A stretch of 64,000 nt of DNA from Octopus vulgaris (lineage: Eukaryota): contig OX597826.1 of NCBI GenBank assembly GCA_951406725.2, positions 79,732,001 through 79,796,000 on the forward strand, written 5' to 3'. Position 1 is the stretch's first letter. Each line of letters begins with the position of its first letter. Under the pieces are notes generated by a model. The model was not told where the DNA came from. It saw only the letters and a list, made by a program, of their open reading frames with translations, and made no database searches. Of the stretch, positions 7,492 to 55,445 are shown piece after piece. Position numbers and translations under genes: made by a program.

Positions 7492-7535
7492 GTAGCACTG
7501 ACGAGGTGCAGTGCTGCGAAATGCGCGTCTGTTAC
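7492..7535 (+). ncRNA. minimal type I hammerhead ribozyme motif (Penelope-type)
   Basis: GUAGCA CUGACGA GGUGCAGUGCUGC GAAA UGCGCG UC UGUUAC: 6-bp stem I (GUAGCA/UGUUAC), intact core, GUC triplet, stem III with palindromic GCGC loop; stem II register is imperfect. Confidence 0.75.
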
Positions 7536-14121: not shown

Positions 14122-14404
14122 TATTCTATAATTACAAGTATAATTATAATTAGGGTTCAGTAAAGATTTGCTTTACCACATACCGAAGTTTAGAAATAGC
14201 AGTCAAAGAACCTTAGCTATTTCTTCTATTATAAGAAGAGACTCCCGGAGAAAACAAAATACTCGAAATAACTCACGCAGACAGTCTCTTCTCATAGTAG
14301 AAGAAATAGCTAAGGTTCTTTGACTGCTACTTCTAAACTTCGGTATGTGGTAAAGCAAATCTTTGCTGAACTCTAATTATACTTATACTCGTAATTATAA
14401 AATA
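14122..14404. repeat. long inverted repeat (about 122-bp arms, 39-bp spacer)
   Basis: 14122-14243 is the reverse complement of 14283-14404 with only scattered mismatches. Confidence 0.92.
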
Positions 14405-21542: not shown

Positions 21543-21868
21543 TAGTATGAAGACATTGCAATGTTTTGGAGTGAAAGAACATTCTTAGCAATCAGTGAAA
21601 TGGGGTGATAAATGCATTTATAATTGTTTTCTTGGAATCCATGTTAAGGAATGCATAATATTAGTTTCGAATTTCAGTTGAAGGCGAGCAAGTTTGGCAG
21701 GGGCTAAGTTTATTACATCGACCCCGCTGTTCATTTGGTGTTTATTTTATAGACTTCGAAAGGATAAAATTCCACTTTGACCTCGGCAGAATTTGAATCT
21801 AGGACGTCCGGGACTCCTAATAATTATGCCTGCTCATTACCTTAAGGAATGCATGATAAAGCCTAAGC

Positions 21869-22025
21869 ACATTATTTACATTATTTACATTTGACAGATA
21901 TTTGTCCTCCTCTTTGTTGTTAACACAATATTTCGGCTGATATACCCTCCAGCCTTCATCAGGTGTCTTGGGGAAATTTCGAGTCTGGGTTCTCATTCCT
22001 AAGGTATTTTTCGATGTTGTTGTTG

Positions 22026-22103
<78 letters not shown>

Positions 22104-22114
22104 TCATTACCTGG
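21869..22114 (-). mobile_element. family E (hammerhead SINE), inverted partial copy
   Basis: Reverse complement of about 22172-22372; lacks most of the head and the 32-nt tail. Confidence 0.9.
21922..21967 (-). ncRNA. minimal type I hammerhead motif (family E)
   Basis: GACAC CUGAUGA A GGCUG GAGGGUAUAU CAGCC GAAAUAUU GUGUU; stem III palindrome is AAUAUU here. Confidence 0.8.
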
Positions 22115-22188
22115 GGCATATGGCGTAGGGGTTAAGAGCGCGGACTACTAACCACAAGATTCCGAGTTAGATTACAGGCAGTGACCTG

Positions 22189-22221
<33 letters not shown>

Positions 22222-22403
22222 ATTGAAAAATACCTTAGGAATGAGAGCCCAGGTTCGAAATTTCCCCAAGACGCCTGATAAAGGTTGGAGGGTATATCAG
22301 GCGAAACGTTGTGGTAACAATAAACGAGATGAAGACAAATATCCATCAAATGTAAATAATGTAAATAATGTACATAAATCTTCATCTCTTGAATATAGAA
22401 CTG
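22114..22403 (+). mobile_element. family E (tRNA head + (AAC)n + hammerhead + tail), full length
   Basis: GGGCATATGGCGTAGGGGTTAAGAGCG (A box), GAGTTAGATTAC (B box, mutated), mutated HHR at 22270-22315 (CUGAUAA), tail 22372-22403. Confidence 0.9.
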
Positions 22404-22566
22404 TAAAGTCTACGAAGTTTTGTTTCTAATGTAGCATCTGAAGTTTTCATTTCTATAAATTACTTTGTGTGGTAGAAGATTACGGCAACAACGGCAGCAG
22501 AATATCATGATATATATTTTGTTCTTCAGCCTCAGCTTATCTTTCATCAAGCAGATCTATGATCAT

Positions 22567-26060: not shown

Positions 26061-26364
26061 AAATTATCCGACGATGCTAACCCCTAAATAATAATAATAC
26101 GGTGACTGCTAAAAAACAGAACCTGCATTACCAAGAAAATAGACTCCTATGGTATTATTTCAACATTTTAACTCGCTTCTGAGGAGACAATATGCTTCTG
26201 TTCATCCATTCTTGAGCAATGCACTCGACCATAAGAACTTGTAATAACAAAAATGTTTGCTATTTGATACATTTGTTACAAACTTTCATAATGTATCTTC
26301 TTTTATGTACAATGATTGTTTTCGTATTTCTTATAATTCTTTTCATTTGTGTAAAAAATATGTT

Positions 26365-26500
26365 GTATTATTTACATTTGATGGATATTCGTCCTCATCT
26401 TGTTTGTTGCTAACACAACGTTTCGACTGATATACCCTCCAGCCTTCATCAGGTGTCTTGGGGAAATTTTGAACCTGGGTTCTCATTCCTTAGGTATTTA
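26365..26500 (-). mobile_element. family E inverted partial copy
   Basis: Reverse-complement family E body without the 32-nt tail. Confidence 0.9.
26412..26457 (-). ncRNA. minimal type I hammerhead motif, intact core
   Basis: GACAC CUGAUGA A GGCUG GAGGGUAUAU CAGUC GAAACGUU GUGUU. Confidence 0.85.
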
Positions 26501-26532
26501 TAAGCCCTAAAATTCACTCCATAATTGCCCAA

Positions 26533-26746
26533 GGGCATATGGTATAGTGTTTAAGTACGCTGGCTACTAACCCCAAGATTTCGAGTTCGATTCCAGGCAG
26601 TGACCTGAATAATAATAATAAGACACCTGATGAAGGCTGGAACGTATATCAGCCGAAACGTTGTGTTAACAACAAACAAGATGATGACAAATATACTTCA
26701 AATGTAAATAATGTACATAATTCTTCATCTCGTAAATATAGAGCTG
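26533..26746 (+). mobile_element. family E with internal deletion
   Basis: Head GGGCATATGGTATAGTG...GAGTTCGATTCC, (AAT)n joined directly to AGACACCTGATGA, tail 26715-26746. Confidence 0.9.
26622..26667 (+). ncRNA. minimal type I hammerhead motif, intact core
   Basis: GACAC CUGAUGA A GGCUG GAACGUAUAU CAGCC GAAACGUU GUGUU; predicted cleavage 3' of 26662. Confidence 0.88.
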
Positions 26747-27284
26747 TAAAAATATCTAATGTTACATTAATTTTAGTCCCCATTAAGTGGACAGTTATTC
26801 AGATGAAGCTAAATTGCTGTATAGGATATACCACGTATTGTAGACAATACGCCAGTAGTTATCAGCCAAGATGCACAAGGGTACATCTTAAGCGATATCT
26901 AATAGTTCACCAGTGAATAAAATACCAATTTCTTTAAAATAAAATGTTCATATGGAAAGTTATACAATTAATTGTTATCTGACATTTTGCGAAATATCTT
27001 GAAGAAAGACATCATTTTAGTGAACCGTACTTAGCATATATTATGTAGATTATGGACTTTGAACATTGGTACAAGATTAAATATTTCAGAAGATGTTGCA
27101 GTTAATTAAATCGAACACAGTGTATAATTGATTTGTTATTTTATTGGCATCGAAAGACTGAGAAGTAAAGACGACATTGTAAGATCTGAACTTAAACTAC
27201 AGGGTTGATTCTCTAAATAACACCGAGTCATTGTCCGACATTTTGACGATTCTGGGAATCCACCACCATTAAACAAAGCAGAAT

Positions 27285-32983: not shown

Positions 32984-33019
32984 CTTTCTGTAGAAGAGCG
33001 TAGGCTCGAAACGTAAAAG
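32984..33019 (+). ncRNA. hammerhead-like motif with variant core (CUGUAGA)
   Basis: CUUU CUGUAGA A GAGC GUAG GCUC GAAACGUA AAAG: stems I and II perfect, ACGU palindromic stem III, A6 replaced by U; lies in a short element (about 32962-33112) that ends in (TA)n. Confidence 0.65.
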
Positions 33020-33462
33020 TCTTTTTCTATTCCTGAGCGTTATACTAATACATCTGTTTGTTTTGTAAACCACCTGTCTTCGTCATTTGTTTTTTACGTA
33101 AACTCTCCCTATATATATATATATATATAATAGTATAAAATACAATTATAATTAAGGGCATAGAAGAGACCACGGCTATGCTGAAAATAGACGCCACATT
33201 GTCAAACCACTTAAAAATTGCGTAATATGTATTTGTGGGTATATGTATGTACGTATCTATGCCTGTCTCTGTCTGTTTGTATATATGTATGACTATATGG
33301 ATACTTCTATGTATGTATACTTAGGCATATGTATTTATGTTTGTGTGTATGTGTTTATGTATCTATGTATCTATGTGTATGTATGTATGTATGAATGTAT
33401 GTATGTATGAATGTATGTGTGTGCATGTATGTATTGTATACACACATAAATATATATAAATA

Positions 33463-33661
33463 ATAATAATAATAATAATAATAACAACATAAAAAAATAG
33501 CTTAGGAATGAGAACCCAGATTCGAAATTTTCCCAAGACACCTGATGAAGGCTGGATGGTATATCAGTCGAAGAGTTATGTTAGCAACAAAACAGATGAG
33601 GACAAATATACGCCAAATGTAAATAATGTACATAATTCCTGATCTCTTAAATAAAGAACTG
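33463..33661 (+). mobile_element. family E, 5'-truncated, degenerate hammerhead
   Basis: (AAT)n...AAGACACCTGATGAAGGCTGGATGGTATATCAGTCGAAGAGTT...AGAACTG. Confidence 0.88.
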
Positions 33662-33850
33662 TATTATGTGATGAAGTTCAACGATTTGCCATGCATTCAT
33701 ATATTATGAGCAGCACTAGGATGTGAGGTTTTGGAACGATAATTGAATTCAGGGCAGTTGAAATATTTCGTTTCCTCCAATCGCTTCCTCTGCCTCAGTC
33801 TGTCGGTTTCTCCGCTATGTGCCACTCTCACACACACACACACACACACA

Positions 33851-34844: not shown

Positions 34845-36440
34845 TTCTATCTTATATTTCGGTATTTTGGGATTAGGGCTTCTTTATCAGGAGGAATGAC
34901 GGGGTGGGAGTGGAATAAAGCTATTATTGTTGCTTAGATATGTGAGGAATGGTAATAAACAAGCGCAAATAGGTAATGTTATAATAACCACTCAGCTTCG
35001 TGAAACTCTTTTCTATTGTTAAATGCTGGTTAATTAATAAGGAAAGCCTCTTTATTTCGAAGGTTATCTATGTTACGTTCTCTGATCCTGAAGAATACTG
35101 TAAAGTCCCGAGTCGGGTACGGCTGCAGGTGTTTAGGGACTGATACATTTATGCACCCGTGTACTTTGAAACAGTTGTGCAGTTTTGTAATGATGCTCAC
35201 GATGCAGGATGCACCACATCCGCTGCAGACTACCTCGTATACCAATGTAGGTACTCGAGTGCATTTTAAGTTGTTGATGGGACAACTGGAGAATATGCAC
35301 CCAATTATTACCTCCGCCTTAGCGAAGGCAGGGGTATTGTTTCAGTCGTTTGTTTGTTTGTGGACAAGATATCTCAAGAACCGTTGGATGGATTCGGTTG
35401 AGACCTTCAGGGAGGTTTGGCTTCGTGACTGGAATGAACTCATTAGATTTTGCGATCGATCCGGTACCGGACACGGATTCTAGATTACTTTTCCTGTTAT
35501 TTTATTTTTTTTTATTTAATTTTTGAGAGCGTTCGGGTTCATTTTTAGTATTCTCGTTTGTGAGAGCAGTCGAGTTTATTTCAGATATTTTCATTTTAAA
35601 AATCATCTCCGGCTAATCGCTGAGAGGACGTTGGTATTGTTTTGGCGGGATTTGCGCTCTCTGAGTGCTATCGTTTTGTTTGTGGCGAAATTTCTTAAAG
35701 ACAGATCATTTGTATGTTTAGCCTGTCCCTGCAAATCAAATGATAAACTGCAGCTGCGCTCCTAAAGTCGGAGGAGAGTAGTTTTAAGAAGCATGTGCCA
35801 GTCTTGAGAGTATAGGCCTTCTTATGAAGTTTATTAACTTTGGCATTGTGTGTATTCTGTTGCTTGATGAATGGTGGTGGTTAGCGGTTGGTTAGTAGGG
35901 TCTTGTGAAGCCGTTCGGCACTGGCAGCGGTACCTGTCGCTTTACATGTGCCATTTCATTTCGTTTGTAGGCGACAAAGGAAAGGACTGAAAATTAAAGG
36001 GGATCGAATGATACTGGCTGTGCTAGGGGTTACTATAGAAGTGGAATGTTGTGGGTTCCTAGTTCAATCTACGCTGTCTTGACCTGGTGGCATTGTAAAT
36101 ATGAGATAAAGTATAGCAGTATTTTGCGAACTGCAGAAAATAATTTTAACGCGGATAGAGGAGCATCAGAACAAAAAAATACTGAGGCCAAAAGAAGAAA
36201 CGAGTAGTAAAACAGAGTAATTGTTACATGGTTGGCATGTTTACAACAACTCACAATTTGGTGTGAAGGACGCGTAGATATAAAGAGGCTTTTTACAGTC
36301 TCAGCCAAAAGAACGCGGATGCTTCCAGGCAACAACAATGCTGTTCACAGCACAGCTGGAGGGGAAAATATCGTGGGACTGGTGCCAAAATTGCAGTTAT
36401 ATTCAGTTGACAGCTGACTAGCGAATAGGCCCGCAGTGCA
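34845..36440 (-). pseudogene. Penelope-like retroelement relic (RT + GIY-YIG), interrupted by a HINE
   Basis: ETVKSLFISTRP (cf. DV.SLFT..P), FHFYSNP, and ORF 35030-35245 VYEVVCSGCGASCI...KVHG...KHL...KEAFLIN (GIY-YIG pattern); decayed HHR CUGAUAA...GAAAUAU at about 34845-34895. Confidence 0.75.
35305..35677 (+). mobile_element. Helentron-associated element (HINE-like)
   Basis: ATTACCTCCGCCTT...AAGGCAGGGGT short IR, (GTTT)n, TGGCGGGA, 3' hairpin GCGCTCTCTGAGTGC; colinear with 23412-23741. Confidence 0.82.
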
Positions 36441-51520: not shown

Positions 51521-51552
<32 letters not shown>

Positions 51553-51554
51553 AC

Positions 51555-51867
51555 AGTTACGGAATCGAGTAAATATGATCCGCGCTACATGTGTTTCATA
51601 GCGAGTGGAACCTGGGAAGTGGTAAATATCCAAGCGAGGTGTGTAGCGCAGGTTGCGCGTCAGGCCAAGGGTTACTTGGTTCTGATCGAAACTCCAATGT
51701 GTTAACATGTACTTCCTTGCGACAATGTAAACTTTCACTTAATCAAGATACCCTTGACCTGACGTGTAGCCTGTGGTATACACCTCGCTTTCATATTTAC
51801 CTCTTCCTAGGTTTCGCTCGCTATGAATCATGTGTAGCCTGGATCTTATCTGCTCCGTTCCTTAACT
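51555..51867. mobile_element. palindromic MITE-like element
   Basis: About 125-bp imperfect arms: AGTTACGGAATCGAG...CAAGGGTTACTTGGTT versus AATCAAGATACCCTTG...CCGTTCCTTAACT. Confidence 0.82.
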
Positions 51868-52123
51868 CTTCTATTCTTATTCGCACACCCAGCAACTCTG
51901 GTTGCCTGCCGTGAAATATGAAAAAAAAAAAGGAAATTCAGCTTATTGTACTTCGATACGAAAACATCCGCACCCTTCCGTCTCAATAATCTATTATTGC
52001 TCCTGAAGGTTGTTTTTTTTTTAATACTTACTACGGATTGCTTGAAGCTAACTTTCTTCCTACACCTCGATCCTTGAATCTTACACACAGACACACATGC
52101 ACGCGCACGCACGCACGCGCACA

Positions 52124-54555: not shown

Positions 54556-54655
54556 ATTACAAATCTTATACCCTGTAGCTATGTAGTCAAATCGAAATAA
54601 AGAGTACAGTGAACTTCTTAGGGGTGAAATAATCCAACGTTTTGAAAAGATAATA

Positions 54656-54786
54656 CAGTTCTATATTTAAGAGATGAGGAATTATGTACATTATTTACAC
54701 TATTTACATTTGACAGATATTTATCCTCATCAAGATGAGGGCAAATATCCGTCAACCGTAACAAATGTAAATAATGTAAATAATGT
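54656..54786. mobile_element. family E 3'-end-only inverted pair
   Basis: Minus copy 54656-54731 includes the 32-nt tail; plus copy 54732-54786 ends at AATGT without the tail. Confidence 0.85.
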
Positions 54787-54898
54787 TTTGAAAAGAGTGT
54801 TTCTTCACGGAAACGTTGAAAGGAAACTAATCAATAAGAAACAAAAGATTAATAGATCCTCTTAAAAAGACTGGCTGCAACCGATGAGGAACGCGAGA

Positions 54899-55445
54899 TC
54901 ACGTGAGCTTCATATGTGAAAGAAAGAAATGGTTGGAGAAACAGTGGGAAAGAATTAGAAGGAAAGAATAATGGAATGAGGAGAAGCAGGCAAGGTAGAG
55001 AGTGAGAGAAGAGTTGAGGAATAAGAAAGGTTCAAAGAACAAAGTGGATGTGTAGGTGCAGAAGGTAAAACGTTCATTTAAAGCTGTCGGTGACATGGTG
55101 CCATGTTCAAGCACGAAACGATGATCCATCTGTTCCTTAGAAGACGTGGATCCATGGTGTGGCACTGTGTCACACACAGTTAAATGAGAGAAGGAATGGC
55201 CTTCAGTGTGGAAATGGATGGAAATAGGTAGGCCTGGCATATATAATAGTGTGCTGCGTATGTGTTCGTGAAAGCGATCGGCAACGCGTCGGCTTGTTCC
55301 CTCAATGTAAACGGCGCCGTGGTGTTTGTATTTGTTACAATATGTAAGATTGGACGATGTGTAAAAGTTCTGAGTATTGTGATATTGTGTCTTAGGCTCA
55401 ATGATGGTTGTATATATAAGTGCTGTTTGGAGTCCTGTTACTCAT
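54899..55445 (-). pseudogene. Penelope-like (Neptune-type) GIY-YIG endonuclease relic
   Basis: One minus frame reads TIIEPK...FYTSSNLTYC...VYIEGTSRRVADRFHEHIR...LPISIHF...H...LEHGTMSPTALN, matching SSN.VYC...YIGET.R.L..RF.EH...PV..HF...LGT..P.GLN. Confidence 0.82.

What the first reader, a model, noticed from the sequence alone, without database searches (positions are those of the whole stretch)
21869..22403. Family E inserts as inverted partial copy plus full copy, with a 32-nt tail on one arm only
Seen at 3 of 4 loci: the sense copy is preceded by an inverted, variably truncated copy whose outer end stops at ...AAATAATGT (approximately so at 26365). The main copy continues for 32 nt (22372-22403, 26715-26746, 54656-54687). 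The breakpoint is the centre of a near-palindrome, ATAATGT|ACATAAT. Established: Penelope insertions often have an inverted 5'-truncated pLTR and a ~30-40-nt tail on the 3' pLTR only. Inference: this is an independent mechanistic fingerprint of PLE-type integration, possibly with fold-back priming at the palindrome.
Basis: partly seen in the sequence, partly recalled or inferred. Interest (0 to 1): 0.82.

Follow-up and report, generated by a model that had tools for sequence, protein, structure and literature searches.

The report
Penelope retroelement ends inserted back-to-back
These are truncated ends of an abundant octopus Penelope-type jumping gene, inserted as back-to-back pairs in which one arm carries a 34-38-base tail and the other stops at a fixed earlier point; this is a known footprint, likely made by copying from both cut DNA strands, and the main oddity is a likely tRNA-type promoter inside the repeat.

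Summary
Three of four copies are head-to-head pairs: a tail-less arm ending at ...AAATAAT(GT) and a tailed arm. The tail is 34-38 nt, not 32, and both arms are 5'-truncated. All three pairs have target-site duplications (about 8-12 nt) and different inner junctions with 1-4 nt overlaps, so this is not a MITE. Contigs of public runs show the same two preferred 3' ends in other copies. The repeat carries a minimal type I hammerhead, the mark of Penelope pseudo-LTRs, which supports the Penelope reading independently. Fold-back priming at the palindrome is not supported: the palindrome is real but lies at the outer end of a head-to-head pair. The best model is two target-primed reverse transcriptions, one per nicked strand, from two RNA start sites, as shown in vitro for Poseidon_Ac. 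A tRNA-like A/B-box segment lies upstream but is not the repeat's 5' end. I found no reverse transcriptase gene for this family and could not measure the share of copies that are inverted. The scan reported this anatomy before on other DNA of this genome (e1-8669850). Verdict: new member of a known kind.

The parts
21857..21867 (+). L1 left TSD copy (9 of 11 match to 22404-22414)
21869..22114 (-). L1 tail-less arm: core, (AAT/AAC)n run and last 16-20 nt of the head; outer end at ...AAATAATGT (site P1)
21922..21967 (-). Minimal type I hammerhead, core intact
22114..22405 (+). L1 tailed arm; shares one G (22114) with the inverted arm at the inner junction
22114..22190 (+). tRNA-like head: A-box-like 22121-22131, B-box-like 22166-22175 (3 mismatches to recalled box motifs)
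   Evidence: no tRNA call in 13, 52
22189..22224 (+). (AAC)n run between head and core; (AAT)n in most other copies
22241..22405 (+). ATG-initiated frame open through core and tail (55 codons); possible start of the element ORF, not shown
22270..22315 (+). Minimal hammerhead, G8 changed to A at 22280 in this copy (G in most copies); predicted cut after 22310
22326..22388 (+). Predicted 10-bp stem (22326-22335 with 22379-22388) whose loop holds P1 and the near-palindrome centred at 22371/22372; weak support
22372..22405 (+). Tail, 34 nt here; last 2 nt shared with the TSD
22404..22414 (+). L1 right TSD copy
26354..26361 (+). L2 left TSD copy AAAAATAT (right copy 26748-26755)
26367..26499 (-). 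L2 tail-less arm with intact hammerhead core (26457->26412)
26496..26532 (+). High-copy segment upstream of the head; continues upstream in other copies; ATTT at 26496-26499 shared with the inverted arm
   Evidence: tables 2 and 7
26533..26748 (+). L2 tailed arm: head 26533-26609 (A-box-like 26540-26550, B box 26585-26594), short (AAT)n, core lacking its first ~45 nt, hammerhead 26622-26667, tail 26715-26748
33458..33667 (+). L3 solo tailed copy, truncated in the (AAT)n run; hammerhead core damaged; tail 33630-33667 (38 nt); no TSD found
54639..54650 (-). L4 TSD copy TCTTTTCAAAAC (other copy 54785-54796)
54650..54731 (-). L4 tailed arm, 82 nt; tail 54687->54650 (38 nt)
54731..54786 (+). L4 tail-less arm, 56 nt; shares one letter (54731) with the tailed arm

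Best explanation
Family E is a hammerhead-carrying repeat whose copies end at one of two fixed 3' points and often lie as head-to-head pairs inside a short target duplication; it is most likely the terminal repeat (pseudo-LTR) of a Penelope/Poseidon-type retrotransposon, probably written by two target-primed reverse transcriptions, one from each nicked strand. Shown here: the pairs, the TSDs, the variable inner junctions with 1-4 nt overlap, the two 3' ends 34-38 nt apart and the hammerhead motif. Taken from Poseidon_Ac in vitro (PMC11167929): the GIY-YIG/RT protein nicks and extends both target strands and starts at two internal RNA sites that bound the tail. Inferred: one strand is primed at P1 (...AAATAATGT, no tail) and the other at P2 (...ACTGTA to ...ACTGTATTAT, tail); both cDNAs stop early at variable 5' positions; they are joined through microhomology; repair of the staggered nicks leaves the TSD. 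P1 probably marks a protein-bound RNA stem-loop and not a self-priming hairpin. The repeat also holds a likely RNA polymerase III (tRNA-type) promoter upstream of an (AAT)n run. A coding parent is inferred, not found.
For: 3 of 3 pairs have one P1 end and one P2 end, a TSD and a different inner junction. Hammerhead: 4 exact-core descriptor hits in the window, 3 of them in this family, and 0 in each of 20 shuffles; core intact in 3 of the 5 arms that include it. Its layout (5-bp helix I, 6-bp helix II, unpaired base after A9, palindromic 15/16 positions) matches the min-HHR described in PMC4209133. Run X1 laid on the L1 tailed arm: of 17,353 contigs, 1,798 fit only partly; listed downstream loose ends are 95 at 22372 with unrelated flanks (agreement 0.39), 63 at 22403 and 184 at 22405. 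On L2, three DNA runs give 175, 188 and 204 loose ends at 26367 and 122-196 each at 26742 and 26748. Translated copies: of 30 family-E-like hits among 78, 6 carry the tail, 13 switch to unrelated sequence at P1, 6 are undecided and 5 do not reach P1. Sequence upstream of the head is high-copy and conserved for at least about 65 nt. An ATG frame runs from upstream of the hammerhead through the tail, as the ORF start does in Pen2a and Poseidon_Ac.
Against: No RT or GIY-YIG ORF was linked to the family: 3 hits, none with RT; 78 hits, the longest family-related one 188 aa; the 6 tailed hits share no continuation. Rfam gave no hammerhead match. One search listed 13 joints, none on opposite strands, and hid 228 loose-end places, so inner junctions and the inverted share were not measured outside this window. 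The P1+P2 pairing rests on 3 loci. Arms of one locus are no more alike (89.6, 91.4, 90.9%) than arms of different loci (82.9-93.5%), so a single template is not shown. The stem around P1 folds with z of -1.97, -0.23 and -1.09 and has one two-sided change. The L1 TSD alone is weak (91 of 3000). L3 has no inverted arm and no TSD.
Confidence: 0.7

Rival explanations
1. Same Penelope-type insertion, but family E is a non-coding passenger (SINE- or retrozyme-like RNA made by polymerase III from its tRNA-like head) that borrows the protein of a separate Penelope family through a shared 3' end.
For: No coding parent found. The head occurs twice in the window, both times upstream of the core, plus a fragment in the L1 inverted arm. 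The L1 tailed arm starts exactly at the head. Non-autonomous PLE derivatives are reported (PMC8557442 passages; bioRxiv 10.64898/2026.07.22.740005 abstract).
Against: In L2 and in 92, 58 and 16 contigs of runs X1, X2 and X17 conserved sequence continues upstream of 26496 (agreement 0.76-0.82), so the head is not the 5' end. No tandem units in the window.
Confidence: 0.18
2. One reading: the cDNA or RNA folds back at the ATAATGT|ACATAAT palindrome and primes the inverted copy.
For: The palindrome centre coincides with P1, and such centres are rare (48 of 52,236). PMC3846280 favours self-priming, on an antisense template, for palindromes at inverted junctions; the L4 inner junction is a near-perfect hairpin.
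Against: The palindrome is at the outer end, joined to target DNA through a TSD, and has no loop. The arms are head-to-head, and L1 and L2 have 60-120 nt between the arms that only one arm holds.
Confidence: 0.05
3. L1-type twin priming on one RNA by a LINE protein.
For: Head-to-head inversion with 1-4 nt microhomology and variable TSDs resembles it (recalled; no paper on it was read).
Against: Both arms hold the same 3' segment, whereas twin priming inverts a segment upstream of the sense part (recalled). No poly(A) or repeat 3' tail; the second priming site is fixed; hammerhead and tail point to PLEs.
Confidence: 0.03
4. A MITE or fold-back DNA transposon with long inverted termini.
For: Long inverted arms of about 90% identity inside a TSD.
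Against: Arm lengths (246/292, 133/253, 56/82 nt), inner junctions and TSD lengths all differ among the three pairs; the ends are asymmetric; a solo copy exists; a hammerhead is present.
Confidence: 0.02

Closest known systems
Adineta vaga Pen2a_Av and related EN+ Penelope elements (PMC3846280; passages and Discussion read)
   Same: Inverted, shorter pLTR at the 5' side; optional 31-bp tail on one pLTR; 8-10 bp TSD; ORF begins inside the pLTR and runs through the tail.
   Different: There the ORF lies between two direct pLTRs; here only truncated ends are seen. Its pLTR has TATA/Inr-like motifs, not tRNA-type boxes.
Poseidon_Ac of Anolis carolinensis (PMC11167929; parts 1-2 of 4 read)
   Same: Hammerhead near the ORF start; two 3' end points that bound a tail; AT-rich targets; the first start site lies in a stem-loop.
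   Different: Its protein is known and tested; none was found for family E. P1 lies 52-61 nt after the predicted hammerhead cut here against about 85-92 nt there (my arithmetic from the paper's coordinates). No tRNA-like segment is mentioned in the parts read.
Minimal type I hammerheads of metazoan PLE pLTRs (PMC4209133; part 1 of 4 and passages read)
   Same: Short helix I, long helix II, unpaired base after A9, palindromic remnant of helix III; pairs of motifs 100-700 bp apart on opposite strands are reported for Schistosoma.
   Different: The predicted cut triplet here is GUU; activity is untested, and 2 of 5 copies have core damage.
Animal non-LTR retrozymes (PMC7229834 passages; bioRxiv 10.64898/2026.07.22.740005 part 1 of 5 and passages)
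   Same: Type I hammerhead in a short abundant repeat related to PLE pLTRs.
   Different: Those are tandem arrays with a hammerhead in each unit; no tandem units of family E occur in this window.
tRNA-derived SINEs (recalled)
   Same: A and B box spacing in the head, followed by a simple repeat.
   Different: The repeat extends upstream of the head, and the 3' end is a PLE tail, not a LINE-type tail.

Membership tests
EN+ Penelope-like element (Penelope/Poseidon type) | Single ORF with PLE reverse transcriptase and C-terminal GIY-YIG endonuclease | tested here: inconclusive
   None linked to family E; no genome was held, and only truncated ends lie in the window.
EN+ Penelope-like element (Penelope/Poseidon type) | Direct pLTRs from partial tandems flanking the ORF | not testable with these tools
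   No full-length copy available; conserved sequence upstream of the head is seen only as a 30-letter loose end.
EN+ Penelope-like element (Penelope/Poseidon type) | Inverted 5'-truncated copy adjacent to the 5' end | tested here: met
   3 of 4 loci, with different truncation points.
EN+ Penelope-like element (Penelope/Poseidon type) | Optional 30-40 bp tail on one end | tested here: met
   34-38 nt on 4 of 4 main arms and 0 of 3 inverted arms; both end classes in other copies.
EN+ Penelope-like element (Penelope/Poseidon type) | Minimal type I hammerhead in the pLTR | tested here: met
   Own descriptor: 3 intact cores, 0 hits in 20 shuffles. Rfam has no match. Cleavage untested.
EN+ Penelope-like element (Penelope/Poseidon type) | Short TSDs of variable length in AT-rich targets | tested here: met
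   12 of 12, 8 of 8 and 9 of 11 at the three pairs; none at the solo copy.
EN+ Penelope-like element (Penelope/Poseidon type) | ORF start inside the pLTR, running through the tail | tested here: inconclusive
   ATG frame open for 55 codons in L1 and open in 6 of 7 arms; two Octopus gene models begin at this ATG; no continuation into an RT was found.
tRNA-derived SINE | Internal A and B boxes | tested here: met
   2 and 3 mismatches in L2 and L1 at 34-nt spacing; most copies read a perfect A box (table 7). Weak in single copies: shuffles give 0-3 such sites per window at up to 2 mismatches and 6-12 at up to 3. Not called as tRNA.
tRNA-derived SINE | Element begins at the tRNA-like head | tested here: not met
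   High-copy conserved sequence precedes the head in L2 and in contigs of 3 of 4 runs as listed.
tRNA-derived SINE | LINE-type 3' end (poly(A) or simple repeat) | tested here: not met
   Copies end at P1 or P2; the simple repeat is internal.
Non-LTR retrozyme | Tandem units, each with a type I hammerhead | tested here: not met
   No head-to-tail units among the 7 arms in the window; not excluded elsewhere in the genome.
Non-LTR retrozyme | Circular monomer RNA | not testable with these tools
   Only contigs were available.
MITE / TIR DNA transposon | Symmetric terminal inverted repeats, fixed interior, fixed TSD length | tested here: not met
   Asymmetric ends, three different interiors, TSDs of 8-12 nt.

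The most novel reading that the evidence does not exclude
Family E is the pseudo-LTR of a Penelope element that has captured a tRNA-type polymerase III promoter, and its two-armed insertions always pair one tailed with one tail-less arm because the two subunits of the RT-endonuclease dimer start at different RNA sites on the two target strands. The same repeat also supplies first exons to octopus host genes.
Probability: 0.3. Interest if true: 0.65.

Novelty: new member of a known kind. Interest (0 to 1): 0.35.

Why it matters
The footprint itself is published for Penelope-like elements, so the finding mainly classifies an abundant octopus repeat. Its use is as a test set. How Penelope elements make inverted pairs is still open (self-priming on an antisense template in PMC3846280; two-strand extension in vitro in PMC11167929), and a family with many short two-armed insertions, clear TSDs and two fixed 3' ends allows a count that separates these models. 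A tRNA-type promoter inside a pLTR was not found in the searches run (Repbase and Dfam could not be searched) and would be a new variant if shown to work.

Tried and rejected
No whole genome was held, so the copy table that the finding asked for could not be built. Exact-pattern scans: 0 matches in metagenome contigs, 0 in viral contigs, 0 and 2 in prokaryotic genomes; the 2 are chance matches of 23-25 letters with no other family sequence. Rfam: nothing at gathering score in the window, only a CRISPR repeat at E 3 in L2, nothing on the L1 head. ARAGORN: no tRNA; at a lowered threshold two poor, inconsistent folds. Pfam: nothing useful on 4 window translations. The GIY-YIG-like remnant at 55052-55384 gave no sequence relatives and shares no sequence with family E, so I do not take it for the parent. 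No RNA holder was listed; X17 is RNA only by guess, so expression is untested. Opposite-strand joints arise because the query holds both arms and were not counted. The 89 loose ends at 22369 read as tail sequence of copies with one 9-nt unit and were not counted as a third end. Summed contig depth was not used as a copy number. The sister-family classification failed through a wrong anchor and was redone. P0059, a low-complexity hit, was dropped before the counts (77 of 78 classified). A single RNA template for both arms could not be shown: the 9-nt unit number agrees within L1, L2 and L4 in the window, but contigs of X2 and X5 across the L2 left junction carry 9 gap letters (records 17 and 25), so L2 may differ.

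Full report
Setting. The window is AT-rich, microsatellite-rich animal DNA. The two named protein hits that carry the repeat come from Octopus, so the source is inferred to be an octopus genome. No whole genome was held. Evidence from outside the window comes from contigs of public runs and from translated copies in protein collections.

Observation. BLAST with the 22224-22403 core finds seven arms at four loci. L1, L2 and L4 are head-to-head pairs; L3 is solo. In each pair one arm stops at ...AAATAAT(GT), called P1 here, and the other runs on through a tail to P2. The tail is 34 nt in L1 and L2 and 38 nt in L3 and L4. Neither arm is full length: the pairs measure 246/292, 133/253 and 56/82 nt. 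Inner junctions lie at three different places of the element and share 1, 4 and 1 letters (the 4-letter overlap follows from loose ends at 26496 and 26499). TSDs flank all three pairs: 12 of 12 at L4, 8 of 8 at L2, 9 of 11 at L1. Of 3000 random junction pairs, 0, 2 and 91 score as high, and none of 6 cross-locus pairings scores above 3. L3 has no TSD. Arms are 83-94% alike, and no more so within a locus than between loci.

Other copies. Laid on the L1 tailed arm, run X1 gave 17,353 contigs, 1,798 of them fitting only in part. The listed downstream loose ends are 95 at 22372 with long unrelated flanks, 63 at 22403, 184 at 22405, and 89 at 22369 that read as tail of copies with one 9-nt unit; 228 further places are not shown. 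On L2, three DNA runs give 175, 188 and 204 loose ends at 26367 and 122-196 at each of 26742 and 26748, the latter starting with TTAT. The 26367 counts are less clean, because that arm has no tail for tailed contigs to follow. A profile of five window translations found 78 proteins. After dropping one low-complexity hit, 30 are family-E-like: 6 carry the tail, 13 turn to unrelated sequence at P1, 6 are undecided and 5 stop earlier. The outer breakpoints are therefore clustered, not scattered. The share of copies with an inversion could not be measured: one search listed 13 joints, none between strands.

The core holds a minimal type I hammerhead (22270-22315 in L1): helix I of 5 bp, the CUGAUGA box, an unpaired A, helix II of 6 bp, GAAA and a four-letter palindrome in place of helix III. 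My descriptor, built from recalled core motifs, finds 4 exact cores in the window, 3 in this family, and none in 20 shuffles. Rfam does not call it. The layout is the one PMC4209133 describes for PLE pLTRs. Upstream lie an (AAT/AAC)n run and a 77-nt head with A- and B-box-like motifs 34 nt apart. The boxes are weak in single copies, and neither ARAGORN nor Rfam calls a tRNA, but the majority of copies read a perfect A box (table 7). The head is part of the element, since the L1 inverted arm includes its 3' end. It is not the 5' end: 26496-26532 is high-copy, and 92, 58 and 16 contigs in three runs continue upstream with one sequence. This moved me from my first reading, a Penelope-mobilised SINE, towards a pLTR, as the unchecked note e1-8669850 had concluded for another locus. 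I could not check its claim of a coding parent. An ATG at 22241 opens a frame through hammerhead and tail, open in 6 of 7 arms, and two Octopus gene models start there, but no hit continues into a reverse transcriptase.

The palindrome. P1 is the centre of the strongest near-palindrome in each tailed copy, and only 48 of 52,236 unmasked centres in the window are as strong, so the coincidence is unlikely to be chance. It does not explain the inversion. It has no loop, it lies where the arm meets target DNA, and folding back there would give tail-to-tail arms, as PMC3846280 states for sense self-priming. P1 also lies in the loop of a predicted 10-bp stem whose second strand is in the tail; support is weak (z -1.97, -0.23, -1.09; one pair is A-U in L1, G-C in L3 and L4, unpaired in L2). 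A recognition signal for a dimeric protein is my inference.

Mechanism. PMC11167929 shows that purified Poseidon_Ac protein nicks and extends both target strands, prefers AT-rich DNA, starts at two internal RNA sites that bound the tail, and is predicted to be a dimer. Applied here by inference: one nick primes at P1 and the other at P2, both cDNAs stop early, they join by microhomology, and the stagger of the nicks becomes the TSD. This accounts for head-to-head geometry, overlapping arms, variable inner junctions and the one-sided tail. Earlier notes on other repeats of this genome gave the same two-strand reading (e1-8672125, e1-8672319); they are leads, not support. That every pair has one end of each kind rests on 3 loci. 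I put Penelope-type integration at about 0.9, and the full account with a coding parent and two-strand priming at 0.7.

Comparison and novelty. The structure matches Pen2a_Av (inverted shorter pLTR, optional 31-bp tail, 9-bp TSD; PMC3846280) and the general PLE scheme (PMC8557442). It works like an EN+ PLE end and meets four testable marks; the defining ORF is unproven. It fails the SINE test on its 5' and 3' ends, the retrozyme test on tandem units and the MITE test on all counts. Penelope families are known in Octopus vulgaris (PMC13282606, part 1 of 3 and passages; no mention of hammerheads in its main text). Searches for a tRNA-derived or polymerase III-driven PLE, or a Penelope-mobilised SINE, returned 5 papers seen only as listings and none; Repbase, Dfam, closed journals and all supplements were out of view. 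What I saw of each paper: PMC11167929 parts 1-2 of 4; PMC4209133 part 1 of 4 and passages; PMC3846280 passages and Discussion; PMC8557442 passages; PMC7229834 passages; bioRxiv 10.64898/2026.07.22.740005 part 1 of 5 and passages.

Verdict. A real feature, correctly assigned to Penelope-type integration, and a new member of a known kind. The fold-back idea is not supported. The tRNA-type head and the strict pairing of ends are the points worth a genome-wide count. Interest 0.35.

Noticed in passing
window 22241-22350; proteins P0001, P0002: Two named Octopus gene models (O. sinensis LOC115224785 isoform X2; an O. bimaculoides WD40 protein) begin with the family E peptide and then switch to host sequence, near GT motifs of the repeat. 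The repeat may serve as a first exon; these are predicted models only.
   Followed up: partly
window 54630-54650 and 54786-54812, minus strand: L4 is inserted into what looks by eye like a decayed hammerhead of another element, about 270 nt downstream of a GIY-YIG-like remnant. The descriptor scan did not test it.
   Followed up: partly
window 55052-55384 (-): GIY-YIG-like coding remnant, probably of an older Penelope: Atlas score 0.95, 194 of 256 features, eukaryotic cluster with PF01541 on 42% of members; no Pfam or sequence hits.
   Followed up: partly
window 35030-35341 (-): A second frame that looks by eye like a GIY-YIG remnant; no Pfam hit.
   Followed up: no
proteins P0008-P0081 (47 hits): A sister repeat family with a related hammerhead region also has two 3' ends: 22 tailed, 19 tail-less, 4 undecided, 2 without anchor; several hits hold tandem units of about 40 codons. 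Source organisms unknown.
   Followed up: partly
window 14155-14371 and 51552-51870: Two other fold-back pairs (84% and 73% self-complementary).
   Followed up: no
window 7498-7529 (+) and 32988-33015 (+): Two further hammerhead-like motifs outside family E, one with an exact core and one with one change.
   Followed up: no
window 26250-26850: The L2 insertion is also present in run X5, which carries another species label than X1 and X2 (records 25, 30, 32); no empty site was seen.
   Followed up: no
window 4620, 19263, 27472, 29554, 44382, 52733, 62525: Several other SINE-like families with A/B-box motifs.
   Followed up: no
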